IMG/VR virus record: IMGVR_UViG_3300046168_000050
Source of the DNA: a virus
Strand: one strand, 5' to 3'
DNA: 64,000 bases
Position numbers and translations under genes: made by a program. The notes beneath the pieces are model-generated. The model was not told the origin of the DNA and searched no databases. It saw only the letters and a list, made by a program, of their open reading frames with translations. Shown here in pieces: positions 34,148-55,427 of the stretch (the stretch's first letter is position 1; each line of letters starts with the position of its first letter).

Positions 34148-35071
34148 TTAGTCTTCTGCTGCTAGTTTAGCAAAATACGACATGGTGTCATCATCATCCA
34201 TAGATGAACTTTCTGCCGTAGCTGCAGGTGCTGATGGCATTGCAGGCTCAGGAGCGGCTGTTACCGGAGAACTATAAGACTCTGTAGTATCTAATGATAC
34301 CTGCTCGCGGACAGTTCGTGGTACAGACTCTCCAAGGACTAGAGCAAGACGTGACTTAAGTTCGTCATATGTCTTATAGCTTTTTGGATCAGTCCATTCA
34401 GTCATTTCATGTTGTTTTTCATAAATGACTTCTTTTTTCTCATCGTCTCCGGCAAGTAATTCCGAAGCTGACTTAAACGAAGAAGCATCATAGTTTGGAT
34501 AACCTTCGACCTTACGAATCTTAAGCGTAAAGTCTGCACCTTCCCACATATCAAATGGATTAACCGGAGCTTCATCAGGAAACTGAGGCTGCATGCTATC
34601 CATAATCTTGTCAAAGATTTTCTTGCCGAAGCGATAAAGTTTAACTTGACCTTCGTTCTCTGGATTTGCAGGATCTGAAATAACTAGTACGTTTGCAATA
34701 TATCGTAAGTTACGTTTGCGCTCACGTACAGTACGTTTGGCTTCGTCAGAGCCATCTTCATTCCACAGCTTACTGTTACTTTCAGCTAATGGATCTGGTT
34801 GACCAATAGATGTAAGAGACTTCTCTACATACCATTGACCTGTTGGGCCTTTGAAGAAGTGATCCCAGTACCGAACCCATGGTGTTGGGGCTTCTGCGTC
34901 TCCTGGTAGGAAACGGATTACAGCGTAACCATTGCCAGCCTTATCTCGTGTTGGTGTCCAGAAGCGTGGATCTTCTGATTGACGTTGAGATTGTTGACCT
35001 GTGTTTTCTTGAGCCTGATTAATCAAGCTATTAAGATCAGTACGATTACGTTTTAGTGCTGCAAAACTCAT
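34148..35071 (-). CDS. gp32: Single-stranded DNA-binding protein gp32
   Basis: D.RFW.P..DK.GNGYAVIRFLP, GKKIFDKI, NPFD.W.GADF.LK, Y.NYD.S.F, acidic tail SYFAKLA. Confidence 0.96.
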   Translation of the reverse strand: MSFAALKRNRTDLNSLINQAQENTGQQSQRQSEDPRFWTPTRDKAGNGYAVIRFLPGDAEAPTPWVRYWDHFFKGPTGQWYVEKSLTSIGQPDPLAESNSKLWNEDGSDEAKRTVRERKRNLRYIANVLVISDPANPENEGQVKLYRFGKKIFDKIMDSMQPQFPDEAPVNPFDMWEGADFTLKIRKVEGYPNYDASSFKSASELLAGDDEKKEVIYEKQHEMTEWTDPKSYKTYDELKSRLALVLGESVPRTVREQVSLDTTESYSSPVTAAPEPAMPSAPAATAESSSMDDDDTMSYFAKLAAED

Positions 35072-35924: not shown

Positions 35925-35984
35925 ATTCTATCACAGTTTTGCTGTAATGTACATAAAAACTTTTTATTAGAAATCAATCAGTTA
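35925..35984 (-). promoter_or_regulatory. Early-type promoter TGTACA-N17-TAGAAT with IHF-like box
   Basis: -10 at 35930-35925, -35 at 35953-35948; AATCAAtcagTTA at 35972-35984. Confidence 0.75.
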
Positions 35985-36188
35985 TAATTTTTTTTCGTCA
36001 TACTCATATAGTTCATATTCACCATCAACTAATTTAGCTCTTACAAATCGCTTTTTGATTAGCGCCACAATTGTGGCTTCAATAACTTCTTCTGTCTCAT
36101 GGCGTGACATGTCGCGACCAAATAAAAAACCGACTATAGCTACACCACCAAGAAGAAGCCACTGAATAATAGAAAGTGTAGTAAACAT
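35982..36188 (-). CDS. Small membrane protein
   Basis: N-terminal TM helix; late promoter TATAAATA at 36220-36213. Confidence 0.6.
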   Translation of the reverse strand: MFTTLSIIQWLLLGGVAIVGFLFGRDMSRHETEEVIEATIVALIKKRFVRAKLVDGEYELYEYDEKKL

Positions 36189-36220
36189 ATGGTTTCCTTA
36201 ATTATGAATGACTATTTATA

Positions 36221-36481
36221 CTATGTGAAAGAGATGACATTTGCAACGCGAAAAGAACGAAAACCGCCCTTTAATGTATCAAATGCTACGATTGTTTCTT
36301 CATTAATATCACGAACCTTTTTTTGCGTAATAGGTTCATTCTTCTTAGCGTCAGGCAGAACATCTTCAATTAGCGTGCACATCATATCACGCTCTTCACC
36401 ATTTACTTTTTTAAAAATGACACGGCAGACACGTTTCTGCAATTCATTAATCATATATTCGCGAGAGCTTGAGTCAATCAT
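36221..36481 (-). CDS. WYL_2 / Sm-like SH3 protein
   Basis: L......V.F.KVNGE.R.M.CTL....AFD....GFRSFR motif. Confidence 0.75.
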   Translation of the reverse strand: MIDSSSREYMINELQKRVCRVIFKKVNGEERDMMCTLIEDVLPDAKKNEPITQKKVRDINEETIVAFDTLKGGFRSFRVANVISFT

Positions 36482-36672
36482 TTATAGGGATCCTTTACTT
36501 TGTAAGTTAAATCGATATTCGGGTTCTGGTTCTTTTTTAATTCTTTTACGCCAAGTGTGTGCATAAAAGTAGGATCAGCCATTAGTATGTCAATGACCTT
36601 TTCCCAATCTTGAATTTTACCTTCTAGATATTGCACACGTCGATCGAGATGTGCAACCTGATAGTCTGACAT
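36478..36672 (-). CDS. Hypothetical protein
   Basis: Coupled ORF with SD GAGGAG. Confidence 0.55.
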   Translation of the reverse strand: MSDYQVAHLDRRVQYLEGKIQDWEKVIDILMADPTFMHTLGVKELKKNQNPNIDLTYKVKDPYK

Positions 36673-36673
36673 A

Positions 36674-37015
36674 TTATCTCCTCATCGATGCAGCATCTAT
36701 CGCTGCTTGTTTGTTATCTTTACGGACTGGCATTAGATTTGATTTATGTGTAACTACAATACCAGCGATTTCATCACCTGTATAGCGACTACGTTCTTTT
36801 GCAAGACCATTGCCTGCTATACGATCACTCGTCATACGAGGACCACAATTATAGTCAGGTAAGTCAGGCCTATAACTTGACTTACCTGAAACAAGTTTAT
36901 CTAGAAACTTTTGATGTTCGGCTTCCGCCTTTAATAATTTATTCGATTTTCGTTTCGCCTTACGGCGTTTCCCTACACCATGGACTTGAACTCCTCTAAT
37001 CATATGCATAGACAT
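36674..37015 (-). CDS. Conserved hypothetical protein
   Basis: YTG..I.GI...HKSNL.PV......D...MRR C-terminus typical of T4-like early ORFs. Confidence 0.7.
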   Translation of the reverse strand: MSMHMIRGVQVHGVGKRRKAKRKSNKLLKAEAEHQKFLDKLVSGKSSYRPDLPDYNCGPRMTSDRIAGNGLAKERSRYTGDEIAGIVVTHKSNLMPVRKDNKQAAIDAASMRR

Positions 37016-37221
37016 TAAGCTGCCTCCTTATAATGTTGATCGAATGTGCCATAGATACGTAACTTAACATTACGAATATGGTTACATGGTTTACGTGGCG
37101 CTTTTTTACAAGAACAACTGAAACCCTCAGGATGCATGGTGACAGTACCTTTGGCATAAATCCATTCAGTACCGACCATCCAATGGTCCTGAGTATCAAT
37201 GAGACTAGTACTAAAAATCAA
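37015..37221 (-). CDS. SWIM zinc-finger-like small protein
   Basis: CSC......PCNH (CxCxnCxH); ATGA and TAATG couplings. Confidence 0.65.
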   Translation of the reverse strand: MIFSTSLIDTQDHWMVGTEWIYAKGTVTMHPEGFSCSCKKAPRKPCNHIRNVKLRIYGTFDQHYKEAA

Positions 37222-37424
37222 TCTGTGTACCTCCTATCAACTGCAGATGCATCCCATACATACTTGTGCATTCTAGGATCACCTACTATAACAACATCAC
37301 TATCACCAACTTCGCTATAGACACGAGCGTCCATATATTTGTGATAGTAGGCAGGACCACCGAAAACCCTGCGAGCTGCCTCATAACGAGCCTCACTCAT
37401 ACCAACATAGTGTACAGTTCTCAT
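37218..37424 (-). CDS. Hypothetical protein
   Basis: 68 aa; its SD AGGAG lies inside the upstream RNA stem. Confidence 0.65.
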   Translation of the reverse strand: MRTVHYVGMSEARYEAARRVFGGPAYYHKYMDARVYSEVGDSDVVIVGDPRMHKYVWDASAVDRRYTD

Positions 37425-37427
37425 AAT

Positions 37428-37620
37428 AAACTCCTTTCCTCATACGCCCCTAGTATATCCAATCACTTCCGCACGGCCTTATTGACGTTGCCGCTCTAGT
37501 TTGATTGAAACTAATATCTCCACGTTTTCACGACACTGATATTTCACAGGCGAATTATTCTCGCGAGATTGTGTTTTCAGGTGGCCTGCCCTCTGCACGG
37601 ACGTATGAGGAAAAGAGTCT
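37428..37620 (-). ncRNA. Candidate structured RNA / cis-regulatory element (193 nt)
   Basis: 22-bp closing helix (37620-37599 with 37449-37428, 3 G-U pairs, no mismatches on the minus strand); internal hairpins with GNRA loops; fills the intergenic gap. Confidence 0.7.
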
Positions 37621-37625
37621 AAGAC

Positions 37626-37895
37626 TCAATCCCAATCGTTGTCGTAACGAGTTGTTTCAAACATTGTTTCGCCATAGTATTCTTTGGCGTATTTAGATGC
37701 ATCAGTCCAGTGATACATGTTAGACTCTTTAGGAATGTCAAGATCTTTTTTCTTACGAGAAACAGGCTTGGCGCGAGAGATAACTGATGCAGACTGTTTA
37801 CGGATCTTAGACATTTTTTTCTTACGCTCAGCGATTTCTTTGATGAGAGCAAGACGATCAGATTGAGTAGTTGCAGTTTTCATAGTATTCTCCAT
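37626..37895 (-). CDS. Hypothetical early protein
   Basis: Follows an early promoter; SD GGAG precedes MKTATT (start 37883 or 37895). Confidence 0.6.
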   Translation of the reverse strand: MENTMKTATTQSDRLALIKEIAERKKKMSKIRKQSASVISRAKPVSRKKKDLDIPKESNMYHWTDASKYAKEYYGETMFETTRYDNDWD

Positions 37896-37908
37896 AATTA
37901 ATAAAACC

Positions 37909-37968
37909 ATTCTACACTATTAAAAACGGTTTGTACACCTTTTTGTTTTGTTTAAAATCAATAACTTA
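37909..37968 (-). promoter_or_regulatory. Early-type promoter TGTACA-N17-TAGAAT with IHF-like box
   Basis: -10 at 37914-37909, -35 at 37937-37932; AATCAAtaacTTA at 37956-37968. Confidence 0.75.
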
Positions 37969-38196
37969 TCATTTTTTTTCTAAAATAAATGCACCTTCCG
38001 GTGAAGTCCATGCTGACATTAATTTTAGATACATCATATCAGTCAAAGCTATAACTTGAAATCTGTCATCCTTTTCATTCCACTGGCGAATATAAACTAC
38101 ATCGTCATAAAGAAAAACCGAAACGTCATCGTATTTTCCTTTATCGTCTAAGATTGTAATGAGTGTTTCGTCCTCATCAAATTCAACTGTATACAT
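37969..38196 (-). CDS. Hypothetical acidic protein
   Basis: MYTVEFD.DET.IT.LD....DV.......VYIRQW pattern seen in marine phages. Confidence 0.6.
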   Translation of the reverse strand: MYTVEFDEDETLITILDDKGKYDDVSVFLYDDVVYIRQWNEKDDRFQVIALTDMMYLKLMSAWTSPEGAFILEKK

Positions 38197-38290
38197 TCCA
38201 CACCACTGCTATATAGTGAGCATCAAGGTGATCTCGATACTCAATTGCTTTGTAAAGACAATCAAAGATTTTATCGTTAACCTTTATCAT
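38183..38290 (-). CDS. 35-aa hypothetical peptide (not in ORF track)
   Basis: ATG overlaps the upstream TGA; MIKVNDKIFDCLYKAIEYRDHLDAHYIAVVWNVYS; fills the gap. Confidence 0.45.
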   Translation of the reverse strand: MIKVNDKIFDCLYKAIEYRDHLDAHYIAVVWNVYS

Positions 38291-38517
38291 CCCCAATCTT
38301 TTCTATCTTCTTCGTTATCATAACCATACATGTAGGCTTCGATCTCACCTACAGTCATGTTATCTTTTCCAACACGTTCAGATTGATATGTAGAACCAAC
38401 ATAATAATGAGGATCTTCTGGCCGGCCGTAATAGGCATCTGCACTACCACGATCTTGAGGTGAACCGTGACGAGGAAGTTTATTCCAACCTTTTACAATT
38501 ACATCTAGATCATACAT
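38287..38517 (-). CDS. Conserved hypothetical protein
   Basis: RHGSP.DRG.AD.YY.R...PHYY.G....EI..Y..GY....D.KDWG family. Confidence 0.7.
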   Translation of the reverse strand: MYDLDVIVKGWNKLPRHGSPQDRGSADAYYGRPEDPHYYVGSTYQSERVGKDNMTVGEIEAYMYGYDNEEDRKDWG

Positions 38518-38936
38518 TATGCTGCCTCCTTATAATCGACAACGGCAGCTAAATCTTTAACTAGCTGTTTACCATATTGAGTAAACAAAATACCTTGTTC
38601 CCACACAAAGTGTTCAACATCTTGAATGTGATAGAAGGTTTCAGTACTAGTCATCCACAAAAGAGCGTTGGTACGATTACCGGCACCAAGCTCGATAACA
38701 TCTTTAAGACGAGCTTCGAACTTTTCGATAGCAACTACTTCAGCCGATTGCTCGGCTTTAGTATTTTCTTCAAGTTGCTCACACAGAGCATCCCAAAGAT
38801 TTTGCTTTGTTTCATCATCAAACGCTAGAAGGTTTTTCATGAAAATTGCAGAAGGACGGAAGCCATGAACATCTTTATGAAGGTCTGACCAAAGATCATC
38901 TGAGTAAGTAAATTCCATTGTGTTTCTCCTTATCAT
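38517..38936 (-). CDS. Hypothetical early protein
   Basis: SDLHKD.HGFRP motif; SD AGGAG before MEFTY (start probably 38918). Confidence 0.65.
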   Translation of the reverse strand: MIRRNTMEFTYSDDLWSDLHKDVHGFRPSAIFMKNLLAFDDETKQNLWDALCEQLEENTKAEQSAEVVAIEKFEARLKDVIELGAGNRTNALLWMTSTETFYHIQDVEHFVWEQGILFTQYGKQLVKDLAAVVDYKEAA

Positions 38937-38942
38937 ATATAC

Positions 38943-38999
38943 ATCCTACACTATTACGAATCGTTTGTACATAAAAAAATGCGGAAAATCAAAACTTTG
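38943..38999 (-). promoter_or_regulatory. Early-type promoter TGTACA-N17-TAGGAT with IHF-like box
   Basis: -10 at 38948-38943, -35 at 38971-38966; AATCAAaactTTG at 38987-38999. Confidence 0.7.
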
Positions 39000-39011
39000 T
39001 TTTCAATGAAA

Positions 39012-39584
39012 TCAACTAGTTAGCATTTTCTCAGAAAACCATTCCGGAACATCACGCTTAGACCATACCATTTTAAACCGATCTTGCTTTGTTTGATAGT
39101 ATTCTTTATAGGATCTAACAGGATCATCTTTATGAATACACTGTGGTTCATGCTGCATGGCAAGAGCAAATGGAGTATAGAGATTTGACCATGTTGTGCC
39201 ACTCGGCGGTTTTCGTAATGTTTTTCGAAGCAGAATATCAGTGGCATGAACTTTACCATAGCGATATTTGTACTCATCGCATAAAGCTACGAAGTGTTTG
39301 TAATGCCATTCATAGTTAGCATTTGTCTGCATAGTCCATACCGTACACGGGTGCCCGTGGTGTACAGCTTTATATAGGGTATTTTCCAGTGATAATTTAG
39401 GATGCACCCAATATTTGACCATGCGCTTGCCTGACTTAGATGGACGTAACTCCATATAACCATCGAGCATCCTGTGCGCTGTGGATAGCATCTGTGCTGA
39501 TTCTACAATCATTTTGACTACATGCTTGTCGCATTGTAGTACTGCGGCTTCTACGGGGTCTGTTGACAATATAAAAATATTCAT
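39012..39584 (-). CDS. Pyrimidine-dimer DNA glycosylase (DenV/Pyr_excise)-like protein
   Basis: MNIF.L..DP..AA...CDKHVVKM..E.AQ.LST.H, H..HPC..W, L..EY..RYGK.H, P.W. Confidence 0.75.
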   Translation of the reverse strand: MNIFILSTDPVEAAVLQCDKHVVKMIVESAQMLSTAHRMLDGYMELRPSKSGKRMVKYWVHPKLSLENTLYKAVHHGHPCTVWTMQTNANYEWHYKHFVALCDEYKYRYGKVHATDILLRKTLRKPPSGTTWSNLYTPFALAMQHEPQCIHKDDPVRSYKEYYQTKQDRFKMVWSKRDVPEWFSEKMLTS

Positions 39585-39590
39585 AAAATT

Positions 39591-39619
39591 ATTCTACACT
39601 ATTTTTTTATTATTGTACA
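39591..39619 (-). promoter_or_regulatory. Early-type promoter TGTACA-N17-TAGAAT
   Basis: -10 at 39596-39591, -35 at 39619-39614. Confidence 0.7.
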
Positions 39620-39815
39620 TATTAAAATGTCTTGCGCAAGCTAAATTAGTTTGCTTATCAGACCAATTAAAAAACTTAGATACCTCAGATAGTATCTTCT
39701 TTTTGCTTGGTTCTTTCCCGTTCCACTTTGAAATCTTTTCCCATAGTATCTTGTCTATGTCTATCCAGTTCATTTCTTTCACGTTCTTCTTTGAGTTTCC
39801 TCTTGATATATTCAT
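39594..39815 (-). CDS. Hypothetical protein
   Basis: 73 aa with SD GGAGAG. Confidence 0.45.
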   Translation of the reverse strand: MNISRGNSKKNVKEMNWIDIDKILWEKISKWNGKEPSKKKILSEVSKFFNWSDKQTNLACARHFNMYNNKKIV

Positions 39816-39844
39816 GATATCTCTCCTGCATAATGTCTCTTTCT

Positions 39845-39852
39845 TATAAATA
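39845..39852 (+). promoter_or_regulatory. T4-type late promoter TATAAATA
   Basis: Exact match just before the lone plus-strand gene 39866..40249. Confidence 0.8.
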
Positions 39853-39865
39853 CAAATGAAAAGGA

Positions 39866-40249
39866 ATGGGGGATAATATGGCTAAAGCTAAAATGATGGA
39901 AGCAGATTCCATCTACGCACATCTAGACACCGACGGTGATGGAATTATTACTGACGAAGAAATGGCTCGCGCAAAAGAAATTGCAGAGTGGGAACATAAA
40001 AAGAAAATGCAAGAGAACGAAGATGCTAAGGAAGACCAAATAAGGTCTATGGCTTGGTTTGCTTTATGGGGCATGCTTCTTTATCCTGTGCTTATTCTAC
40101 TTACTAGTATATTAGGCGTCGACAGTGCTGCTAAAATAGTAGGTGATATTGCTCCTACATACTTTGTAGCAATTGCCGGTCTTGTAGCTGCGTTCTTTGG
40201 AGCCCAAGCCTATTCAAAAGGAAAAGGCCCCAAAGAAGATAAGAAGTAA
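39866..40249 (+). CDS. EF-hand plus two-TM membrane protein (holin-like candidate)
   Basis: DTDGDGIITDEE EF-hand loop, two hydrophobic helices and a basic C-tail. Start may be 39878. Confidence 0.7.
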   Translation: MGDNMAKAKMMEADSIYAHLDTDGDGIITDEEMARAKEIAEWEHKKKMQENEDAKEDQIRSMAWFALWGMLLYPVLILLTSILGVDSAAKIVGDIAPTYFVAIAGLVAAFFGAQAYSKGKGPKEDKK

Positions 40250-40744
40250 TTACTTTTTCTTTTTATCCATTTTAGCCTGAGCAGCATCAACATCGGCCTG
40301 AGAGATTACGCCTTCAGCTATAAGGCGTGCTCTATTCACCATATGAGCTGCTTGGGTTTCTTCTTTACTGCCACCGAAGTATGGCACGCAATGGCCTTCT
40401 AATTCCATAATCTCTGTCACGCGTTTCATTTCACCGTGGTAGTCTACTTCAAAATCTCCAAGAATGCGGCCAAACTTACCCTTCATGTCTTCGCCATGCT
40501 TATCTTCCGTCGTGATAAGTTTTCCGCCGTGCTTCATAAGCTCCTTTAAACGTGCTTTAGCAGCTTCACCAAATAAGTCTTCAACTTTATCAGACGTACG
40601 AGACTCAGGCGTATCAATACCCATTACTCTCACGCGCTCATCTTTTAAGCAAATACCAAAACCTAGATCAATATCCACATCAACGGTATCACCATCAACA
40701 ACTTTTATTACAGTTACATCGTACTTATTCTGATTCATTTTCAT
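40250..40744 (-). CDS. Thermonuclease (SNase-like) family protein
   Basis: KVVDGDTVD..IDLGF......RVR..GIDTPESRT...GKFGRILG. Confidence 0.88.
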   Translation of the reverse strand: MKMNQNKYDVTVIKVVDGDTVDVDIDLGFGICLKDERVRVMGIDTPESRTSDKVEDLFGEAAKARLKELMKHGGKLITTEDKHGEDMKGKFGRILGDFEVDYHGEMKRVTEIMELEGHCVPYFGGSKEETQAAHMVNRARLIAEGVISQADVDAAQAKMDKKKK

Positions 40745-40786
40745 AGTTTAACCTATCTTTATTATTATGATTAAACTATATTTATC

Positions 40787-40812
40787 AAAAAGGGGGCTTC
40801 TGCAGAGCCCCC
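40787..40812 (-). terminator. Rho-independent terminator
   Basis: GGGGGC-UCUGCAGAA-GCCCCC followed by UUUUU. Confidence 0.8.
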
Positions 40813-40948
40813 CTTCCTATCTGCATTTAACGTATGCAGCAACCGTCTGGGTTTCCTGGTACCAGATCGTATACCAACCTAAACACCGCTCGAGCGTTTA
40901 ACGTGAATAGGGTTTAGTTGAGTACGTTTGCGATATTGCAGGCTTTCC
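40813..40948 (-). ncRNA. Candidate structured small RNA downstream of the tRNA
   Basis: ORF-free and GC-richer; several nested helices (CAAC/GUUG, CUAAAC/GUUUAG, UCUGG/CCAGA, CUGCAU/AUGCAG) ending at the terminator. Confidence 0.45.
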
Positions 40949-41182
40949 TCATTCGCCTTCCAGCAGTTGGATTCTCTCTTGGAGACTCTCCTGCTGAACT
41001 ACTTGACGAGCTCTGAATGCAGCATAAGCTACTGCTAGATCTACATGCTGCTCGTCTATTCTATTCATTTCCTCATCGACACGGGCGATATATGCACCAA
41101 GAGCTTTGTTGTGGTTATCCACTTTCTTGATGTACTCACCCATACCGTACATAGACAAAAACCAAATTATTGCTACTTCCAT
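40949..41182 (-). CDS. Hypothetical protein (signal/TM plus coiled coil)
   Basis: SD AAGGAG immediately after the tRNA CCA. Confidence 0.55.
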   Translation of the reverse strand: MEVAIIWFLSMYGMGEYIKKVDNHNKALGAYIARVDEEMNRIDEQHVDLAVAYAAFRARQVVQQESLQERIQLLEGE

Positions 41183-41197
41183 TTAGTTTCTCCTTAT

Positions 41198-41274
41198 TGG
41201 CGAACACGGAAGGATTCGAACCCTCGACCTAGTGCTTAGAAGGCACTTGCTCTATCCAGCTGAGCTACGTGTCC
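41198..41274 (-). tRNA. tRNA-Arg (anticodon UCU)
   Basis: GGACACG acceptor, D arm AGCTCAGCTGGATAGAGC, anticodon arm AGTGC-CTTCTAA-GCACT, T loop GGTTCGAATCC, encoded CCA; 77 nt. Confidence 0.97.
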
Positions 41275-41280
41275 ATTATA

Positions 41281-41472
41281 TTATTCAGTTGGCTTTACGA
41301 GCTGCCAACAAACATTACCATCTCCATCTACAAGAGCTAGAGTTCCTTCACCAGGAGGACGACAATTTGGATTAATCATCTCCCACTGATAACCTTCTTG
41401 TTGCTGCTGATGAGAAAGAGCAAAGAACTCTTGGTTATCATGAGCAAACAACGCTAAAATTATTACAATCAT
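41281..41472 (-). CDS. Small secreted-type hypothetical protein
   Basis: Hydrophobic N-terminus and two Cys. Confidence 0.5.
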   Translation of the reverse strand: MIVIILALFAHDNQEFFALSHQQQQEGYQWEMINPNCRPPGEGTLALVDGDGNVCWQLVKPTE

Positions 41473-41480
41473 TTTCTACC

Positions 41481-41921
41481 TTACCTTTCAAACGGCACTA
41501 CATATCGTTTGCCGTCAATATAAAATCTTATAGTCGAGTGACTATATACACTTACATTAGAATTCTGATACACGACAACATCACTACATTGTCTTTGAAG
41601 TTCATATCCAGTTACCTTAGCACCTTTAGCCGATTCGTTGGCTACGATAGCACCACCAAGAGCACCAATCGCAGCACCACTGTCTTTACCAGATGCAGTA
41701 CCACCAATAAGACCACCTAAGATTGCGCCAAGTAATACATCACCCCCAGAGGCTTGACCGCCTTGCTGATAAATAGGAACTTGCACATCTTGGCATCGCC
41801 GTTCAGATACAGGAACGGATTGCGTTACAGTTTTTTTATGGTCAAAGACTTTAATATTAGTTACTTCTGCAGAAACAGAAGTAGCAGCTAAAACCGCTGC
41901 AGCAGTAATTAAATATTTCAT
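41481..41921 (-). CDS. Glycine-zipper 2TM (YcfJ-like) exported protein
   Basis: Signal peptide, C....VP.Y, LLGAILGGLIG.....GAAIGALGGA, GY....QC. Confidence 0.8.
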   Translation of the reverse strand: MKYLITAAAVLAATSVSAEVTNIKVFDHKKTVTQSVPVSERRCQDVQVPIYQQGGQASGGDVLLGAILGGLIGGTASGKDSGAAIGALGGAIVANESAKGAKVTGYELQRQCSDVVVYQNSNVSVYSHSTIRFYIDGKRYVVPFER

Positions 41922-42106
41922 CTATTATATTCCTCATTAAGAGATGTTACAAGTTCAATTGCCACATCTACGTCAGTTGAATTAAGAGCAGGTAAATCGC
42001 CCGCATACAGTTGAACAGTAAGACATTCATGAATATCTTCGGCAGTGATATGCTGCTTATCATACAACGAAGCAAATATTTGCATAGCTATCTCAGATGG
42101 TCTCAT
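41918..42106 (-). CDS. Hypothetical protein
   Basis: Start moved to MRPSEIA (SD GGAG). Confidence 0.5.
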   Translation of the reverse strand: MRPSEIAMQIFASLYDKQHITAEDIHECLTVQLYAGDLPALNSTDVDVAIELVTSLNEEYNR

Positions 42107-42332
42107 CTGCAATCTCCATTCCAGTAAATCCTTCTTGAGTCCAGCCACGATGCCTAGCATGTGCATCAACGATATGCGTATATTGTGACATAGGCCACAT
42201 ACCTTCTTTTTGAGCCCATTGCTTCATGTCTCTTTGAACCATGCAAGACTGATCACCTTGAACAGGTGAGGCTTCAAGGCGATTGATTTCTTCTTCGGCA
42301 ATATCAAAGCCATTACGAGTTGATTGAATCAT
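42093..42332 (-). CDS. Hypothetical protein
   Basis: Coupled ORF (TAATG). Confidence 0.55.
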   Translation of the reverse strand: MIQSTRNGFDIAEEEINRLEASPVQGDQSCMVQRDMKQWAQKEGMWPMSQYTHIVDAHARHRGWTQEGFTGMEIADETI

Positions 42333-42532
42333 TACACTGCCCTCTTAGCTGCAAGAAATTGATCTGCCATATCGTCAAAGAACGAATTAAAGTTTTCACC
42401 TAATTTTTCTATCCAGCCATCCAAAGCTAAATCAGACTCAACATAGTTCCATATAACCGTTCCGTCTTCAGTCTGGTTAACATAGTTATTACATGCTTTT
42501 TCAAAGGCGGTTACAAATTCAGAATCAAACAT
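42332..42532 (-). CDS. Hypothetical protein
   Basis: N...DG...WN.VE.D motif; coupled ORF. Confidence 0.6.
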   Translation of the reverse strand: MFDSEFVTAFEKACNNYVNQTEDGTVIWNYVESDLALDGWIEKLGENFNSFFDDMADQFLAAKRAV

Positions 42533-42606
42533 TATAAGATAGCTCCTATTGCAAAGAAAAGACCGGCAATGGTCATGCCATTAAGAAGTGTATTGAGGCT
42601 AAACAT
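42532..42606 (-). CDS. 24-aa hydrophobic peptide (not in ORF track)
   Basis: MFSLNTLLNGMTIAGLFFAIGAIL; TAATG overlaps at both ends; SD GAGG. Confidence 0.55.
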   Translation of the reverse strand: MFSLNTLLNGMTIAGLFFAIGAIL

Positions 42607-42863
42607 TAAGCCGCCTCACATACGTTGTTCATGATACGGTTAAAAAGCTTTTTAGCTCCATCGTCATCAGCGAAACCTTCATCAGATGCAAAATCCATAT
42701 CTGAAGAAAAATAACAATCAGAAGCAATACCGTAACGCTCTACCAAATATACACCATCAGCAGTATCATCTGCACGACGTTCGATTTCACCTTCAGCGGT
42801 TTGAATACGAAAGCTAAGACCAGCGTTACAAGCATTTACAAAGTTGATTCCGAATTTTGACAT
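42606..42863 (-). CDS. Hypothetical early protein
   Basis: SD GGAG; directly after an early promoter; SS.MDFA...GF motif. Confidence 0.65.
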   Translation of the reverse strand: MSKFGINFVNACNAGLSFRIQTAEGEIERRADDTADGVYLVERYGIASDCYFSSDMDFASDEGFADDDGAKKLFNRIMNNVCEAA

Positions 42864-42887
42864 TGTTTTTCTCCATTTGATATAACC

Positions 42888-42967
42888 ATACTACACTATT
42901 CCAAATCATTTGTACACAGTTAATTTAGCTTTTTTCAAACTTTGTTTCGTTTGTTTTCAATAACTTA
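42888..42967 (-). promoter_or_regulatory. Early-type promoter TGTACA-N17-TAGTAT with IHF-like box
   Basis: -10 at 42893-42888, -35 at 42916-42911; TTTCAAtaacTTA at 42955-42967. Confidence 0.7.
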
Positions 42968-43108
42968 TCCGTGCTCAAAACGGGCATATGAAAGTGGTAC
43001 AATCTCTTTTTTATTTTTTTCCTTTTTAGTGTTGGAGTTATCGCTTTTAATCCATCCAGTCAAGCTTGCTGCTTCAATGCCATCACAAGGATCGTCGCTA
43101 TCTGCCAT
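42965..43108 (-). CDS. 47-aa hypothetical protein (not in ORF track)
   Basis: MADSDDPCDGIE...; SD GAGGT; overlaps the upstream stop. Confidence 0.45.
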   Translation of the reverse strand: MADSDDPCDGIEAASLTGWIKSDNSNTKKEKNKKEIVPLSYARFEHG

Positions 43109-43406
43109 CTTTACCTCTTAAATCCGCTAATGCATATTTAACCCGGCTGGGATACTCTCCTAAAAAAGTGCCTGCTTCTAACATATCTTTACTTATAAGC
43201 TCTTTATGCATATGTTCTACTTTATCCCAATCTTTTAGCATTTTATTTGCCAGTCTGTCAAAATAGCTATCTGATAATATAGGACGATCTTGTTCATAAT
43301 ATGCATATGCAGCCATAAGGTACCATGGTACTGTCATATTAATATTATCGTCAATTAGATCTCCACAATGTTTATCAAATATTTCATTCTTTTTACGTGC
43401 GGCCAT
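43098..43406 (-). CDS. Stand-alone NAD-dependent DNA ligase domain Ia-like protein
   Basis: AYAYYEQDRPILSDSYFDRL matches the LigA Ia motif YY..D.P..SD..(Y/F)D.L. Confidence 0.7.
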   Translation of the reverse strand: MAARKKNEIFDKHCGDLIDDNINMTVPWYLMAAYAYYEQDRPILSDSYFDRLANKMLKDWDKVEHMHKELISKDMLEAGTFLGEYPSRVKYALADLRGKDGR

Positions 43407-43770
43407 AGTAAGCCTCCGTTAGTTGTTTCTCCTTCGCAAGCGCTTCAATTTCATGTGGTCTTTCATCATATGGCAAATCATAGTACATCTCTTCTTTATG
43501 AAGATATTGTTTGACATGAACGAGTTCATGTAAAAGTGTTGCTACGATTTCATTTTGGGGAAGGGTTGTATCAAAGCGAATCGTAAAGTCACGATCATCT
43601 TCATACATGCAGTCGCCATATACTCCTCTATTGCGCATTGCAATAATATTTATATAAACGTGCTTATGACGAGGAAATAATTTTTTTCGACCGAACTCTA
43701 GTACGTCACAGATTAGATCCTGAAATTTTACGGATTTTATATTTTGGAATTCAACTATCATCATAGGCAT
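43393..43770 (-). CDS. HExxH zinc metallopeptidase-like protein
   Basis: TLLHELVHVKQY...Y..RP.EIEA. Confidence 0.75.
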   Translation of the reverse strand: MPMMIVEFQNIKSVKFQDLICDVLEFGRKKLFPRHKHVYINIIAMRNRGVYGDCMYEDDRDFTIRFDTTLPQNEIVATLLHELVHVKQYLHKEEMYYDLPYDERPHEIEALAKEKQLTEAYYGRT

Positions 43771-43771
43771 A

Positions 43772-43800
43772 ATTCTACACTACCTAACAATATTTGTACA
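43772..43800 (-). promoter_or_regulatory. Early-type promoter TGTACA-N17-TAGAAT
   Basis: -10 at 43777-43772, -35 at 43800-43795. Confidence 0.7.
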
Positions 43801-43803
43801 CCA

Positions 43804-44400
43804 TTATTTTGTTACAATCTCAACATTTTCGCCTTTAGGAAATTTAAGTTTATCATGATTGTGGTGAAGTACAAATTGCGTGTCCTTAAATTCTTCAAAG
43901 ATTTTTTGCCAAATAGGCCTCCAGTTATCATTGAGCCGCACGTTATTTGTAGTGCCGCGGTCTGATCCAAGATAAAAGTCCGTACAGCTTCTTAGATTCA
44001 TATCAAATAACGAATCGAACCCATATAGATGTATCTCTTTTGCCTGTAGTCTGTTTGCCGTGTAATGCGCTGCGAAATGCCCACAATTAAGATTAGTGTA
44101 ATTACCTGCATATTTTGGTAATACGGTATAAAACTCTTTTATGTGATGCCCAAACCTCATACGAAAATTATCTTTATTTTTGTCATACCAAATCTTAGGT
44201 CTAAACCCAAGCACCCAATCGCCAGGTACGGTAACAGAACCGTCAGTGATAGCCATGCACATTTTAAAATCTACTATGCAAGTTGTATAGCAGTTTTCTA
44301 CCGTAAATGGAGGAAGATTGCACGTAATTTTAAGGCCCTTGGCTGGTTTGTACATAGGAGCATTATCACCGTTACCAATAATATGAGCAACTCTAGTCAT
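43804..44400 (-). CDS. Maf/DUF115/CstII-like glycosyltransferase-fold protein
   Basis: HIIGNG...ITCN...VD...N.G..A......KEIHLYGFD pattern. Confidence 0.55.
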   Translation of the reverse strand: MTRVAHIIGNGDNAPMYKPAKGLKITCNLPPFTVENCYTTCIVDFKMCMAITDGSVTVPGDWVLGFRPKIWYDKNKDNFRMRFGHHIKEFYTVLPKYAGNYTNLNCGHFAAHYTANRLQAKEIHLYGFDSLFDMNLRSCTDFYLGSDRGTTNNVRLNDNWRPIWQKIFEEFKDTQFVLHHNHDKLKFPKGENVEIVTK

Positions 44401-45047
44401 CTAATTGTCTCTCTAATTATTTTTTTAATTTCTTCATTACCCTTAGCGCCTGTCCAGTGCATAACTTTTATTTTGTCTGGAGTAGTGCCATCTAAAACAT
44501 CTAATCTTAATACATTAAACGCTCTAGGTAGGTCTTTTATATATCTCATTCTATTAAGAGCTTGTCCAACTATAGTGTGAAGTACTTCCTGATCTCCTAC
44601 TATAGGCTTATATGCTACTTCTGTTGCCCATTTGCCTAAAATTGATGGCGTACCTTGAAAAGCTATTACTCCGGAGTTATGCCAGGTTTCACCACGCCTT
44701 TTAGACCACGGAATATCTTCTACCATGCATAGCTTTTCTGGTTCAGTAAAGTTAAATATATTTTCAATGTTTTCTTGAACGTGGCAGTCAGTATCCAACC
44801 AACAAACCTTGTTAGCTGCTAAAGCTGCTTTCATCATAGCAGATGGTTTTTTAAACCACCCTCGATCATTACTATTAAGATGCACACTTAATTCCGGATA
44901 TGGATTATTTTTCATGCCGAAATCATATATCATTAACTCAGCATTTGGATTATGCATTTTAAAATTATTTACAAACCATGGCAATTGCCATTCAGTGATG
45001 TGATCACACCCTGTAATAAAAAGATTAGACGATTTTGTAGCTACCAT
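44397..45047 (-). CDS. GT-A glycosyltransferase (GT8-like)
   Basis: WFKKP, WLDTD (DxD), NSGV, GDQEVL, MHWTG.K. Confidence 0.8.
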   Translation of the reverse strand: MVATKSSNLFITGCDHITEWQLPWFVNNFKMHNPNAELMIYDFGMKNNPYPELSVHLNSNDRGWFKKPSAMMKAALAANKVCWLDTDCHVQENIENIFNFTEPEKLCMVEDIPWSKRRGETWHNSGVIAFQGTPSILGKWATEVAYKPIVGDQEVLHTIVGQALNRMRYIKDLPRAFNVLRLDVLDGTTPDKIKVMHWTGAKGNEEIKKIIRETIR

Positions 45048-45666
45048 TATAATTATGCTTTGCTAGGCATCCCTCTGTTTTTTGTATAGTTGTAAATGTA
45101 TCCCTTGCTTCTACAGGCCAAGGATAATACTCTTCTAGCCACGGAAATACGTCAAGATGTAAAAACACATCTGTTGGCTTTGCTTTTCGCTTAGATTCAT
45201 CAATAAGTCGCTGTGCACCCCACGGGCTCACACGGTAGGCGTGGGCACCAGGGAAATATCTTTTAGATACTAATTTATTTTTACCGAGGAGAGGTGGAAC
45301 ATTAAATCTGCCATAAGAAGGCTTTCCAAAATTTATGCACCCATTAAAAGGCATATTAGGGATATAATCAACCAATACTGCATCATGCTCAAATATAGTA
45401 ACTTCTTCTTTTATTTCTGTACAATGCTTCCATAACGACCAATGCGAGTGAAAAGCAGCCATGCAGTTATCTAAACGCGAATATTTTTCTTTAAATCCTT
45501 CTGGTTCAATACCTGCATCAAAAAGAAATCCATATAGAAGTTCATTAGGAGTTGTAGCTTCCCAATTTTGTATTTCAAAGCCATATCTTTTTCCAGATGT
45601 AATACACCGTGCCGCCGCCTCAACAGACTTTGGCATTTGGGACATAGTAATAACATAATTTTTCAT
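45025..45666 (-). CDS. Glycosyltransferase family 25-like
   Basis: YVIT, SHWSLW..C, IFEHDA, GAHAY.VSP.GA..L.....P.D. Confidence 0.8.
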   Translation of the reverse strand: MKNYVITMSQMPKSVEAAARCITSGKRYGFEIQNWEATTPNELLYGFLFDAGIEPEGFKEKYSRLDNCMAAFHSHWSLWKHCTEIKEEVTIFEHDAVLVDYIPNMPFNGCINFGKPSYGRFNVPPLLGKNKLVSKRYFPGAHAYRVSPWGAQRLIDESKRKAKPTDVFLHLDVFPWLEEYYPWPVEARDTFTTIQKTEGCLAKHNYNGSYKIV

Positions 45667-46355
45667 TGAGTCGTGGTACTCTTTAAATTTTGAATAGTAG
45701 TATAGAATTTACGGGTGACATATAAGTCAGGAAATAATTGTCTGCACATTATGGCATCGTTTGGCCAAAGGCCAAATTCCTCTACAAGCTTAAGCATTCT
45801 AATTGCGCCGCTTGGTTTAATTATATATGCACTATTTCCAGCTAACCCCTGTGGAACATTTTCATTATCTACCTTAGGAGCTAATTGAAACATGTTTTGG
45901 CTGTCAATTACTTTCTGATAAAACACTCTAGCCTTACGTGTACAGCCAAGTGGATTATTAATTCCAATAATATTTCCTTTACATTCACTCGGATTAATAT
46001 TTAGTTTATAAGTAAAACAGGCATCGTGTTCTAATATTAATATTGTTTCGTTGCTTGTGGCGGCTTCAAGCCACAGTGAATAGTGGCTCAGCGCGGCTGC
46101 AACCCTAGCCTTAGGTCTTGCCGTTACATACGCGCGTTTAATTAAGCCTGACGCAAAATCAGTAACTTCTCCGGTCCATGGATAATTCCATTGTAACTTA
46201 AATTTTGAAAGAAGTACATCAGTATTTTCAGGTACTATAGCATTGAATCGATTTATTTCAAAATCGTTCTTGACCCTAAAAGAACTAGTCACCAGGTTTT
46301 TATACCCGTGCTCAGATATATCGTGGTCTCTAATTACTATAGCATAGGCTTTCAT
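45663..46355 (-). CDS. Glycosyltransferase family 25-like
   Basis: SHYSLW, ILEHDA, G.SAYIIKP.GA..ML.......PND. Confidence 0.8.
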   Translation of the reverse strand: MKAYAIVIRDHDISEHGYKNLVTSSFRVKNDFEINRFNAIVPENTDVLLSKFKLQWNYPWTGEVTDFASGLIKRAYVTARPKARVAAALSHYSLWLEAATSNETILILEHDACFTYKLNINPSECKGNIIGINNPLGCTRKARVFYQKVIDSQNMFQLAPKVDNENVPQGLAGNSAYIIKPSGAIRMLKLVEEFGLWPNDAIMCRQLFPDLYVTRKFYTTIQNLKSTTTQ

Positions 46356-46933
46356 GATACTCTTTCTAGTAAAGTATATCCTTCTGCGACTTCATTACGT
46401 TCAATGACTTTAAACGGATACTGATCACAAAACCTAACTAAAGTTTCATACAAAGAACTATTCTGACGACCATTAATAATACTAGTGTCGTGTGCCAAAA
46501 TATATTTTTTAATATTAACTTGATGTGTCATAAGTTCTCTTGACATGTGTTGAGGATGATGATAGCTATCAATTAAAAGAAAATCCACAGGGCCACCAGA
46601 AGATTTTAGATGTGTAGAATCTTGTTCAATTTCTTTTAAAATGATTTTATGTTTCAAGCAAAACTCTTCTGCAATAGGCTGTAAGAATTTTCTATATCTT
46701 GACATATCGTTATCGACTAATACGATTTTCTTTGGTTTAGTAAGTAGGGCCGCAGAAGCCGTACCACCTTGGTGTGTACCTAGCTCCATATAAGAATCGC
46801 ACTCTTTCATTCTTTCTTTAATAACCTCATGGTGATCACAATAATGTTCGCCATGTGCTTCTGTCTGCTGTCTTACAATTTCCTTATGAAACTGCTTTAG
46901 AGTTTTTACGTGCCCTAGTTCAGAATTTATCAT
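46352..46933 (-). CDS. Class I SAM-dependent methyltransferase (Methyltransf_24-like)
   Basis: MELGT.QG.T, VD, DS, DFLLIDS.H....EL....I.AHD. Confidence 0.8.
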   Translation of the reverse strand: MINSELGHVKTLKQFHKEIVRQQTEAHGEHYCDHHEVIKERMKECDSYMELGTHQGGTASAALLTKPKKIVLVDNDMSRYRKFLQPIAEEFCLKHKIILKEIEQDSTHLKSSGGPVDFLLIDSYHHPQHMSRELMTHQVNIKKYILAHDTSIINGRQNSSLYETLVRFCDQYPFKVIERNEVAEGYTLLERVS

Positions 46934-46934
46934 T

Positions 46935-47792
46935 TTATACCTCGTATTTTATAGCGTCAATGCACATATCTTCTAATGATTTATTTTGTTTAAAATATTT
47001 AGATTTGGTAGGAACAGTTGATATGGCAATATCACCGGCTCTGCGAGGCCCTTCAACTACTTCAAAATTAACTCTCGAAACATTGGCCATTGCATCTACA
47101 ACTTCTTTTACTGAATGCCCTTCAGGAGAACCTAAACAATCGATTTCATTTGTAGGTTCGTTCTCGGTTATTCTCATTAAGGAATCGACTATATCTTTGA
47201 CATGCGTATAGTTTCTGACACACGTACCGTCTCTTGTTTCAAAGTCAGTTCCATGAATATACAGCTTATCAAATTTACCATTAACTACAGCAGCTGCTCT
47301 TCTAATGAGATGGCTATATTCATCATCATATTTTGCCATACCATCATTGCCACTTACATTATAGAATCTCACAATACTGCATTTGGGTTTAAATTGTTTT
47401 GCTATTAATTCACCTGCATGTTTTGATCCTGCATATGGATTACTTTGTGGTTCGAAAGCACTGCCAGTTGAACAATAAACAAAATGATCGCATGCTGCAG
47501 CATCGATTACATTCTTAGTTCCGATGACATTAGTCATATAATAGTTATAAGGATCTTTTACTGAATTAGGAACTTTTGTTTGCGCAGCAATATGAATTAC
47601 TTTATCATATGTATCATTATTATTCAGCAGTTTATTTCGAATATCCCAAGGATAAAATTTGTGACAGTACTTAAAAATATCATTCTGTTTAGTATTAAAA
47701 TCTGCAGCTGAAATTGTATGTCCAGCCTCTGCAGCGGTTTTTACAAAATGAGCACCTATATAACCCGTGGCGCCTGTCACAAATAATCTCAT
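46935..47792 (-). CDS. galE: UDP-glucose 4-epimerase
   Basis: VTGATGYIGAH, VP.SV..P..YY..NV.GT, YAGSK (YxxxK), RFYNV.G, T.DGTCVR.Y.HV.D, RRAGD. Confidence 0.9.
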   Translation of the reverse strand: MRLFVTGATGYIGAHFVKTAAEAGHTISAADFNTKQNDIFKYCHKFYPWDIRNKLLNNNDTYDKVIHIAAQTKVPNSVKDPYNYYMTNVIGTKNVIDAAACDHFVYCSTGSAFEPQSNPYAGSKHAGELIAKQFKPKCSIVRFYNVSGNDGMAKYDDEYSHLIRRAAAVVNGKFDKLYIHGTDFETRDGTCVRNYTHVKDIVDSLMRITENEPTNEIDCLGSPEGHSVKEVVDAMANVSRVNFEVVEGPRRAGDIAISTVPTKSKYFKQNKSLEDMCIDAIKYEV

Positions 47793-47795
47793 AGT

Positions 47796-50885: not shown

Positions 50886-50886
50886 A

Positions 50887-51681: not shown

Positions 51682-51892
51682 AACTCTCTAAAATCTTTTT
51701 AGCTAGATCCATAGCTTCATCAAATCGTTTTCTAAATCGATTCTTTTTAGCACTATGATTCACAAAATAATATAAACTATCTATATCACCAGTATATGTG
51801 GGTAAATCATAGGTCTTCCTAAAACCTACTATTTCTTCATACTGGTATCGATCGGAAAGAAGTTCAGCCAACGATATATTCATACAGATCAC
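51635..51892 (-). CDS. Hypothetical protein
   Basis: Overlapping operonic ORF. Confidence 0.55.
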   Translation of the reverse strand: MICMNISLAELLSDRYQYEEIVGFRKTYDLPTYTGDIDSLYYFVNHSAKKNRFRKRFDEAMDLAKKILESYENEKTNLPGVYRQT

Positions 51893-52451: not shown

Positions 52452-52475
52452 ATATTTCTCCTTAATTATAGTATT

Positions 52476-52535
52476 ATTCTACACTATAATTAAGGAAATG
52501 TACATCTTTTTGTTTGCAATAAAAACAATAACTTA
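52476..52535 (-). promoter_or_regulatory. Early-type promoter TGTACA-N17-TAGAAT with IHF-like box
   Basis: -10 at 52481-52476, -35 at 52504-52499; AAACAAtaacTTA at 52523-52535. Confidence 0.75.
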
Positions 52536-53919: not shown

Positions 53920-53956
53920 GGTATATTTGGGGGGGACACAGTCCCCCCGATCCTTT

Positions 53957-54109: not shown

Positions 54110-54126
54110 ATCGTTCTCCTTATATT

Positions 54127-54561: not shown

Positions 54562-54562
54562 A

Positions 54563-55405: not shown

Positions 55406-55427
55406 AATAATCTCCTAATTGTTAGGT

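What the first reader, a model, noticed from the sequence alone, without database searches (positions are those of the whole stretch)
37428..37620. 193-nt structured RNA whose 22-bp closing stem hides the next gene's ribosome binding site
Seen on the minus strand: 5' AGACUCUUUUCCUCAUACGUCC (37620-37599) pairs without mismatch to GGGCGUAUGAGGAAAGGAGUUU (37449-37428). The three non-Watson-Crick positions are all G-U on this strand, which favours RNA structure over a DNA inverted repeat. Inside are GCGAG-AAUAA-UUCGC, CGU-GAAA-ACG, UAGUUU-CAAUC-AAACUA, GCG-GCAA-CGU, an AUCUC/GAGAU helix and two GGCC tracts that could pair. The 3' arm contains the SD AGGAG 6 nt before the ATG at 37424, and the element fills the whole gap. 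Inference: a riboswitch-like translational switch, an RNase III-excised small RNA (6S-sized), or a phage RNA motif.
Basis: partly seen in the sequence, partly recalled or inferred. Interest (0 to 1): 0.78.

Follow-up and report, generated by a model that had tools for sequence, protein, structure and literature searches.

The report
Self-pairing small RNA of marine phages
The 193-nt element is real and belongs to an undescribed family of structured small RNAs in uncultured marine T4-like phages. One hairpin loop always carries a self-complementary word, which suggests that two copies pair. Hiding the next gene's ribosome binding site is a side feature found in only about half the members.

Summary
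The arms 37620-37599 and 37449-37428 (minus strand) form a 22-23 bp helix with three G-U pairs. The 3' arm covers AGGAG (37435-37431), 6 nt before the ATG at 37424.

The element is one of at least 66 distinct members, found on 103 IMG/VR contigs and more metagenome contigs. There is one copy per near-complete phage genome. It is absent from Rfam 15, GenBank phages and 185,579 prokaryote species.

Covariation strongly supports the closing helix P1 (11 of 21 pairs change on both sides), a hairpin P2 and a long-range helix P3 around an invariant core.

The central four bases of the P2 loop are always self-complementary: GGCC, GAUC, CCGG, GUAC or wobble UCGG. Double changes keep the palindrome. 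This is the signature of a kissing-loop homodimer.

Only 30 of 66 members hide a Shine-Dalgarno. Ten are followed within 4-8 nt by a tRNA gene, eight have their own near-consensus promoter, and some end at a terminator. I read it as a stable small RNA gene that, in this window, sits inside an operon. It is not a riboswitch for the next gene.

Its function is unknown. First readers of this scan noted the same RNA in several other genomes.

The parts
37428..37620 (-). Whole structured RNA element (type 1 member of the family), bounded by helix P1
   Evidence: Covariance model R1 scores 242 bits on this strand; fold z = -4.8
37599..37620 (-). P1, 5' arm (AGACUCUUUUCCUCAUACGUCC)
   Evidence: In the family, 21 pairs are 99.1% paired and 11 change on both sides. 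P1 is 20-26 bp in all 66 members
37428..37449 (-). P1, 3' arm (GGGCGUAUGAGGAAAGGAGUUU); holds the Shine-Dalgarno AGGAG at 37435-37431
   Evidence: The pair at alignment columns 17/259 is C-G in 30 members and A-U in 30. Read against the alignment, C-G goes with the AGGAG-bearing 3' arms and A-U with the arms that lack an SD
37615..37627 (-). P0: a small hairpin GAGUC-UUA-GACUC made of the 5' flank (overlapping stop codon 37628-37626) and the first bases of P1. It excludes the outer P1 pairs that cover the SD
   Evidence: P0 of at least 5 bp is present in 25 of 30 SD-type members and 6 of 36 others (5 of those 6 have loops of 8-10 nt and look like chance). It covaries: GAGUC/GACUC, AGUUA/UAACU, GAGUU/AACUC, AGUAG/CUACU
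37571..37598 (-). P2 hairpin: GUG(C)...CAC base, an asymmetric internal loop (AG / GAAA), AGG/CCU, and the 8-nt loop GCAGGCCA
37583..37586 (-). Self-complementary tetramer GGCC at positions 4-7 of the P2 loop; proposed kissing-loop dimerisation site
   Evidence: Every family member has a self-complementary word here, whereas only 2 of 39 chance hits of the same loop-free pattern do
37516..37569 (-). P2.1: optional middle domain, a long irregular hairpin closed by AUCUC/GAGAU
   Evidence: Present in about a third of members, replaced by a 4-nt-loop hairpin or absent in others. Compensatory changes
37450..37514 (-). P3: long-range helix UUAGU-UUCAAUC with GAUUGGA-(UAU)-ACUAG, enclosing the invariant core
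   Evidence: 99.6-99.7% paired, with changes on both sides at five pairs
37469..37497 (-). Invariant core AGAGCGGCAACGUCAAUAAGGCCGUGCGG
   Evidence: Nearly invariant in 66 distinct sequences. The pattern finds 103 viral contigs and no prokaryote genome
37909..37937 (-). Nearest upstream promoter-like site, TGTACA-N17-TAGAAT (one of 8 in the window). It would drive the transcript that carries the upstream ORF, the RNA and the downstream ORFs
   Evidence: 8 matches against 0.1 expected. Relative L171 has the same type of site about 24 nt before its copy of the RNA
37626..37883 (-). Upstream ORF (85 aa from the ATG at 37883; function unknown). Its stop codon abuts P0 and P1
37218..37424 (-). Downstream ORF 'gene68' (68 aa, no known family). 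Its SD lies in the P1 3' arm
   Evidence: It lies near the RNA in 38 of 66 contigs

Best explanation
The element is the gene for a stable, structured small RNA of a family not described before. The family is carried once per genome by large uncultured marine T4-like phages.

The RNA is a three- or four-way junction. A 20-26 bp helix P1 joins its two ends. Hairpin P2 presents an 8-10 nt loop with a self-complementary tetramer to octamer. A middle domain is optional. Helix P3 encloses a roughly 30-nt invariant core.

Shown here: the structure, the strand, the copy number, the distribution and the varied genomic contexts.

Inferred:
- Two copies pair through the P2 loops to form a kissing-loop homodimer.
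- The invariant core binds a protein or another partner.
- The RNA is released as a discrete molecule. RNase P would cut at the following tRNA where there is one. Where the RNA lies inside an mRNA, as in this window, a double-strand-specific nuclease such as host RNase III would cut in P1.

In this window P1 also buries the SD of the next gene. On my reading this is an accommodation of the RNA cassette to an operon. Translation of gene68 then needs the RNA to be cut out, or the outer P1 pairs to open, helped by the competing hairpin P0. The biological function of the RNA is not known.
For: Structure: P1 is 99.1% paired and 11 of 21 pairs change on both sides. The whole structure beats 500 of 500 shuffles and all slid controls.

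Strand: the model scores 128-256 bits on the sense strand against about 35 bits on the antisense strand. 14.5% of P1 pairs are G-U.

Family: 103 IMG/VR contigs. One copy in each of four genomes of 178-275 kb, two of them at least 90% complete. No hit in 185,579 prokaryote species. No Rfam or GenBank-phage match.

Independent gene: eight members have TTGACA-N16/17-TATATT 10-78 nt upstream, and ten have a tRNA gene 4-8 nt downstream. Some have terminator-like hairpins downstream. The RNA sits in tRNA arrays, and two of those loci also carry a tmRNA.

Dimer signature: the tetramer at loop positions 4-7 is GGCC, GAUC, CCGG, GUAC or wobble UCGG in every member. A subtype has the 8-mers UUGAUCAG, CCGGCCGG and CCGUACGG. 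Scans that leave the loop free gave the same result, against 2 of 39 chance hits. No column outside the loop covaries with it. The loop type switches inside well-supported clades of nearly identical RNAs. Tandem paralogues carry different palindromes.

SD as a secondary feature: 30 of 66 members have it. The SD base and its partner covary with the presence of a start codon. P0 is associated with SD-type members (25 of 30 against 6 of 36, Fisher p = 6e-8, not corrected for relatedness). L101 and L102 have lost the interior but keep P0, a P1 stump, the SD and the gene.
Against: A discrete transcript, its ends and any RNase III cut are therefore all inferred.

Dimerisation is inferred from sequence alone. 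A 4-bp kissing contact is weak unless magnesium or a protein stabilises it.

The members are related, so the counts of loop switches and the Fisher test overstate independence. The tree rests on 119 columns and is poorly resolved.

In this window P0 does not lower the predicted cost of opening the SD (11.9 against 10.4 kcal/mol).

The next gene, gene68, lies near the RNA in 38 of 66 contigs, so a specific functional link to that gene is not excluded.
Confidence: 0.66

Rival explanations
1. A cis-acting translational switch (riboswitch-like or protein-responsive). The conserved core senses a ligand and toggles P1 against P0 to expose or hide the SD of gene68.
For: The SD is fully buried, with 10-12 kcal/mol to open it. 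The alternative hairpin P0 covaries and is tied to SD-type members. gene68 is the commonest neighbour. The core is invariant, as in an aptamer.
Against: 36 of 66 members have no SD or ATG at the 3' arm. Ten are followed directly by a tRNA gene, and some by terminators or a second RNA. Eight have a dedicated promoter placed so that the transcript starts at P1, with no room for P0. Where gene68 follows at 15-17 nt it has its own SD outside P1. The downstream genes of the SD-type members differ.
Confidence: 0.12
2. Mainly an mRNA processing and stability signal, like the RNase III sites between early genes of T7. The long helix is the functional part and the interior has no role in trans.
For: P1 is never shorter than 20 bp and its mode is 22-23 bp, the size of an RNase III substrate. 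After a cut, P0 would leave a 3' hairpin on the upstream mRNA. L101 and L102 survive with only the stump.
Against: A processing hairpin does not need a 30-nt invariant core, a covarying P3 or a loop kept self-complementary through double changes. The RNA also occurs as its own transcription unit with tRNAs.
Confidence: 0.1
3. A DNA-level element: a miniature mobile element with 22-bp terminal inverted repeats, or a recombination or replication site.
For: There are terminal inverted repeats. The element is present or absent between the same flanking genes in related phages. Different cassettes occupy one slot.
Against: The pairing relies on G-U pairs that become A-C on the other strand, and the model scores about 35 bits on the antisense strand against 128-256 on the sense strand. 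The arms change in sequence but keep pairing. There is one copy per genome. I did not see consistent target-site duplications.
Confidence: 0.03
4. A mimic of a cellular RNA (6S RNA, Y RNA, tRNA-like) that captures RNA polymerase, Ro or a tRNA enzyme.
For: Its size, the long helix joining the ends, its neighbourhood of tRNAs and tmRNA and early-type promoters.
Against: No match to any Rfam model even at E<=10 in the region. It has no 6S-type central bubble and no T-arm or other tRNA-like module (ARAGORN finds none in the element).
Confidence: 0.05

Closest known systems
Phage T4 stable RNAs rnaC and rnaD (species 1 and 2 RNA) in the tRNA cluster
   Same: Both are small stable RNAs of unknown function encoded by a T4-type phage. 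Both sit next to and on the same strand as tRNA genes, so RNase P cutting at the neighbouring tRNA would set one end (T4 annotation; family context).
   Different: There is no detectable homology: model R1 gives only noise on the T4 tRNA region. The T4 sequences show no 20-bp helix joining the ends and no palindromic loop. In T4 the RNAs follow the tRNAs, whereas here the RNA usually precedes them or lies between ORFs.
Retroviral dimerisation initiation site (HIV-1 DIS) and other natural RNA homodimers made by palindromic kissing loops (reviewed in PMC7357161)
   Same: Both have a hairpin loop of 8-9 nt with a central self-complementary word flanked by purines. Variants differ by paired central changes that keep the palindrome. 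From my own knowledge, HIV subtypes carry GCGCGC or GUGCAC; here the words are GGCC, GAUC and GUAC.
   Different: The context is a DNA phage small RNA, not a packaged genome. The palindrome is often only 4 nt. Dimer formation has not been shown.
RNase III processing hairpins of phage early mRNAs (T7 R sites, lambda N leader), and SD-sequestering hairpins of T4 early transcripts (gene e, soc)
   Same: All have a helix of about two turns between cistrons of an early operon, and an SD of the downstream gene locked in a helix so that translation depends on processing or on a different transcript start. This comparison rests on established knowledge, not on a test here.
   Different: Here the helix encloses a 150-nt conserved, covarying structure that also exists as a stand-alone gene. 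Cleavage is untested.
Large ornate bacterial and phage RNAs that form homo-oligomers (ROOL, GOLLD, OLE; PMC12286853)
   Same: These are structured RNAs of unknown function, some phage-borne, whose loops make intermolecular contacts.
   Different: They are three to five times larger and form cages or higher oligomers. There is no sequence or model match.

Membership tests
6S RNA (Rfam RF00013 and relatives) | Match to the covariance model | tested here: not met
   No hit at gathering score or at E<=10 in 37000-38100
6S RNA (Rfam RF00013 and relatives) | A rod with a large central bubble that mimics an open promoter | tested here: not met
   The consensus is a multi-way junction with P2, P2.1 and P3
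Riboswitch or cis-regulatory leader | Consistently placed upstream of one class of genes, with an expression platform | tested here: not met
   30 of 66 members have an SD at the 3' arm. Ten are followed by a tRNA gene, and others by terminators or a second RNA
Riboswitch or cis-regulatory leader | Ligand-dependent change of fold | not testable with these tools
   Needs in-line probing or SHAPE
T4 rnaC / rnaD stable RNAs | Sequence and structure homology | tested here: not met
   R1 with filters off on the T4 region 69000-75000 gives a best score of 11 bits, and not at rnaC or rnaD
T4 rnaC / rnaD stable RNAs | Encoded in a phage tRNA cluster on the tRNA strand | tested here: met
   Ten members have a tRNA 4-8 nt downstream, within tRNA arrays. 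In this window the nearest tRNA is 3.6 kb away
RNase III substrate (phage inter-cistronic processing site) | Helix of about 20 bp or more | tested here: met
   P1 is 20-26 bp in all 66 members and 23 bp in the window
RNase III substrate (phage inter-cistronic processing site) | Cleavage by RNase III | not testable with these tools
   No reads could be obtained
Kissing-loop RNA homodimer (DIS-like) | A loop word that is self-complementary and kept so by paired changes | tested here: met
Kissing-loop RNA homodimer (DIS-like) | A dimer observed in solution | not testable with these tools
   Needs native gels, SEC-MALS or cryo-EM
Miniature inverted-repeat mobile element | Many copies, target-site duplication, arms conserved as DNA | tested here: not met
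   One copy per genome. The pairing is strand-specific with G-U pairs

The most novel reading that the evidence does not exclude
A phage-encoded small RNA that works as a sequence-addressed homodimer. The palindromic P2 loop acts as a fast-evolving specificity code, so that each RNA pairs only with itself and not with paralogues in the same genome or with the RNAs of co-infecting phages. The dimer, not the monomer, presents the invariant core to its target. The same P1/P2 chassis carries several unrelated interiors (types 1-4), which suggests a modular RNA platform. When a cassette sits in an operon, cutting it out switches on the next gene.
Probability: 0.3. Interest if true: 0.85.

Novelty: new variant of a known kind. 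Interest (0 to 1): 0.7.

Why it matters
Structured RNAs with strong covariation and unknown function are rare starting points for new biochemistry.

It carries an unusually clear sequence signature of RNA-RNA self-association. That property has only recently been recognised in natural non-coding RNAs. It can be tested directly in vitro with short transcripts and compensatory loop mutants, without a cultured host.

It also shows how an RNA gene can be lodged inside a protein operon, with its closing helix doubling as a lock on the next gene's ribosome binding site.

For annotation, it marks a stable-RNA island (this RNA, a second RNA, tRNAs and sometimes a tmRNA) that current pipelines leave blank.

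Tried and rejected
- Rfam at gathering score and at E<=10: nothing relevant.
- GenBank phages by megablast and blastn: no match.
- The nearest held virus record, G001, did not match the 751-nt query.
- T4 rnaC/rnaD homology: rejected.
- The 2023 catalogue of about 10,000 viral structured RNAs (PMC10690425) could not be checked, because no supplements are held. Its entries are at most 151 nt, so at most a fragment could be listed there.
- One viral scan was wasted on a mis-registered pattern and returned nothing. Another pattern was too loose and returned mostly chance hits, which I then used as a control.
- Pseudoknot between the P2 loop and the second GGCC or any other column: no covariation.
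- K-turn, T-loop and GNRA-receptor readings of the P2 internal loop and the P3 hairpin: considered by eye only. None fits its consensus, and I do not claim them.
- gene68 as an RNA-binding partner: no Pfam, PHROG or atlas hit, and no PDB fold match. The one viral match is an uncharacterised protein.
- Translational coupling by a ribosome terminating at the upstream stop: with a 5-6 nt gap the ribosome would reach only the first one or two P1 pairs. I do not favour it for this window.

Full report
**What is in the window**

The window is part of an uncultured T4-like phage. It has a gp32-type single-strand DNA binding protein at 34148-35071, and its best relatives are Kyanoviridae at about 50% identity.

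On the minus strand, the 201-nt gap between the stop of a small ORF (TGA 37628-37626) and the ATG of a 68-codon ORF (37424) is filled by the element. The arms 37620-37599 and 37449-37428 pair at all 22 positions, with three G-U pairs. With one more flanking pair this is the best inverted repeat in 15 kb. The fold is far better than shuffles (z = -4.8). AGGAG (37435-37431) lies in the 3' arm, 6 nt before the ATG.

**It is a family**

Searching IMG/VR with the two flanking proteins gave 134 loci. Seventeen distinct homologues of the element were aligned and made into covariance model R1. The invariant core word found 103 viral contigs.

- R1 recovers one copy in each contig, at 128-256 bits on one strand against about 35 bits on the other.
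- Four genomes of 178-275 kb, two of them at least 90% complete, have exactly one copy each.
- The cultured Kyanoviridae phage C48C1 has none.
- 185,579 prokaryote species have none.
- GenBank phages and Rfam 15 give nothing.
- Most relatives that share the two flanking genes lack the element, so it is an optional cassette.

**Structure**

All counts below are on 66 distinct sequences.

- P1 has 21 aligned pairs, 99.1% paired, and 11 change on both sides. Measured on each sequence it is 20-26 bp (mode 22-23) and 14.5% G-U.
- One U-G pair near the junction is invariant.
- P2 follows P1 directly.
- A middle domain, P2.1, is present in about a third of the members, including the window. Elsewhere it is a short hairpin or absent.
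- P3 is a long-range helix, 99.6% paired, with five pairs that change on both sides. It encloses the invariant AGAGCGGCAAYGUCAAUAAGGCCGUGCGG.

The whole structure beats every shuffle and every slid control.

- UAGUUU/AAACUA is pairable but shows no compensatory change, and it competes with P3.
- GCGAG/UUCGC and CGU-GAAA-ACG are not conserved.

**The self-complementary loop**

The P2 loop is the most variable part of the molecule, yet positions 4-7 of the loop always form a self-complementary tetramer: GGCC, GAUC, CCGG, GUAC, or UCGG with wobble. A subtype with a 10-nt loop carries UUGAUCAG, CCGGCCGG or CCGUACGG. Going from GGCC to GAUC or to GUAC needs two simultaneous central changes.

- No column elsewhere in the RNA covaries with the loop, and the second GGCC tract is invariant. 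An intramolecular partner is therefore unlikely.
- Two scans whose patterns leave the loop free gave the same result. All true members have the palindrome. Among chance hits of the same pattern, only 2 of 39 have one at that position.
- On a tree built without the loop columns, the loop type switches within supported clades of nearly identical RNAs. The tree is poorly resolved, so I claim only several switches.
- Three contigs carry two chassis RNAs in tandem. In each, the two palindromes differ. This fits self-only pairing, but three cases are not significant.

The simplest reading is that the loop pairs with the same loop of a second molecule.

**Genomic contexts**

Thirty of 66 members have AAGGAGUU followed by an ATG, as in the window. 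In the other 36 the arm reads AAGUAG, AAAUAG or similar, and the 5' arm compensates (C-G against A-U at columns 17/259).

- Eight members have an 11-of-12 promoter, TTGACA-N16/17-TATATT, 10-78 nt upstream.
- Ten are followed by a tRNA gene after 4-8 nt. Six have both.
- Others are followed by hairpin-plus-U terminators, or by a second, shorter RNA with the same P1 and P2.
- The neighbourhoods are tRNA arrays. Two loci also encode an alphaproteobacterial-type permuted tmRNA, which hints at an alphaproteobacterial host.
- A second conserved RNA, at 40787-40948 in this window, often abuts the element in relatives.

This is the pattern of a stable RNA gene, as with rnaC and rnaD of T4. Those two RNAs do not match the model.

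**The SD lock in this window**

The nearest promoter-like site is TGTACA-N17-TAGAAT at 37937-37909, one of eight in the window against 0.1 expected. The RNA is therefore probably made as part of an mRNA that runs through the upstream ORF, the RNA and gene68.

- The predicted cost of freeing AGGAG is 10-12 kcal/mol. That should block initiation on the intact transcript.
- SD-type members nearly always carry P0, a 5-8 bp hairpin between the 5' flank and the first bases of P1. P0 excludes exactly the P1 pairs that cover the SD. It is found in 25 of 30 SD-type members against 6 of 36 others, and it covaries.
- P0 lowers the opening cost by 3-6 kcal/mol in members with a long P0, but not in this window.

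I infer that release of the RNA by a cut in P1 frees the SD. P0 would then cap the upstream mRNA and hold the 5' arm. This step is inference only.

Contigs L101 and L102 have lost the interior between two TGCA words but keep P0, a P1 stump, the SD and the gene. The outer helix and the gene can therefore persist without the RNA.

**What it is not**

- Not a riboswitch for gene68, because the contexts differ.
- Not 6S RNA, Y RNA or any other Rfam family.
- Not a DNA transposon-like element, because the pairing is strand-specific and there is one copy per genome.

gene68 is highly conserved but matches no known family or solved fold.

**Novelty and limits**

I found no description in Rfam 15 or in the papers searched. 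A 2023 catalogue of viral candidate RNAs could not be checked. First readers of this scan flagged the same RNA in several other genomes, next to tRNA-Pro, tRNA-Trp and mazG. Those notes agree with what I saw, but they are not independent evidence.

No expression data could be obtained. The discrete transcript, the processing, the dimer and the function all remain to be shown.

Noticed in passing
window 40787-40948 (-): A second conserved non-coding stretch ('RNA-B') that ends in a G+C-rich hairpin and a U run. nhmmer finds homologues in 34 fetched loci. They often abut the element (L237 6228-6353, L169 9979-10079) or follow the element plus a tRNA (L143, L178). There is no Rfam match.
   Followed up: partly
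L140 9451-9796; L206 6599-6949: Relatives carry an alphaproteobacterial-type two-piece (permuted) tmRNA in the same stable-RNA island (Rfam RF01849 and RF04321, 105-122 bits). This hints at an alphaproteobacterial host.
   Followed up: no
L150 5895-5993 (-); L120 845-937; L103 2811-2902; L145 418-528 (-); L240 and L273: Shorter or different RNAs share the same P1 and P2 chassis, including a palindromic loop (CCGG or GUAC), but have other interiors (types 2-4). Some sit in tandem with the type-1 RNA and some hide the SD of the next gene.
   Followed up: partly
L013 about 3395-3540; L113; L125: Yet another RNA is clamped by a 16-bp helix (AAACUUCUUAAUACUG / CAGUAUUAAGAAGUUU) and lacks the P2 motif. 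It occupies the same slot between the homologues of the two flanking genes.
   Followed up: no
L101 about 636-688; L102 551-603: A deletion derivative. The interior of the element is missing between two TGCA words, leaving P0, a roughly 10-bp P1 stump, the SD and the gene68 homologue.
   Followed up: partly
window 35925-55458 (-), eight sites: The promoter-like family TGTACA-N17-TAGNAT, with 8 exact matches against 0.1 expected. One site (37937-37909) overlaps the longest reading of the upstream ORF, so that ORF probably starts at ATG 37883.
   Followed up: partly
window 37218-37424 (-): gene68 is a 68-aa protein with 25 invariant positions across 27 homologues. The AlphaFold model has pLDDT 82. 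It matches no Pfam or PHROG family and no solved fold. It lies within 2 kb of the RNA in 38 of 66 contigs.
   Followed up: partly
L225 and L161, 60-100 nt upstream of the element; L185, L236 and L147 upstream: Further conserved sequences that look structured lie between a promoter and the element (for example GGGUGAGAGCGANAAAUAUCUCCG, and a G-rich stretch ending GCCGGGGCGGGGGGCGUG). I did not analyse them.
   Followed up: no
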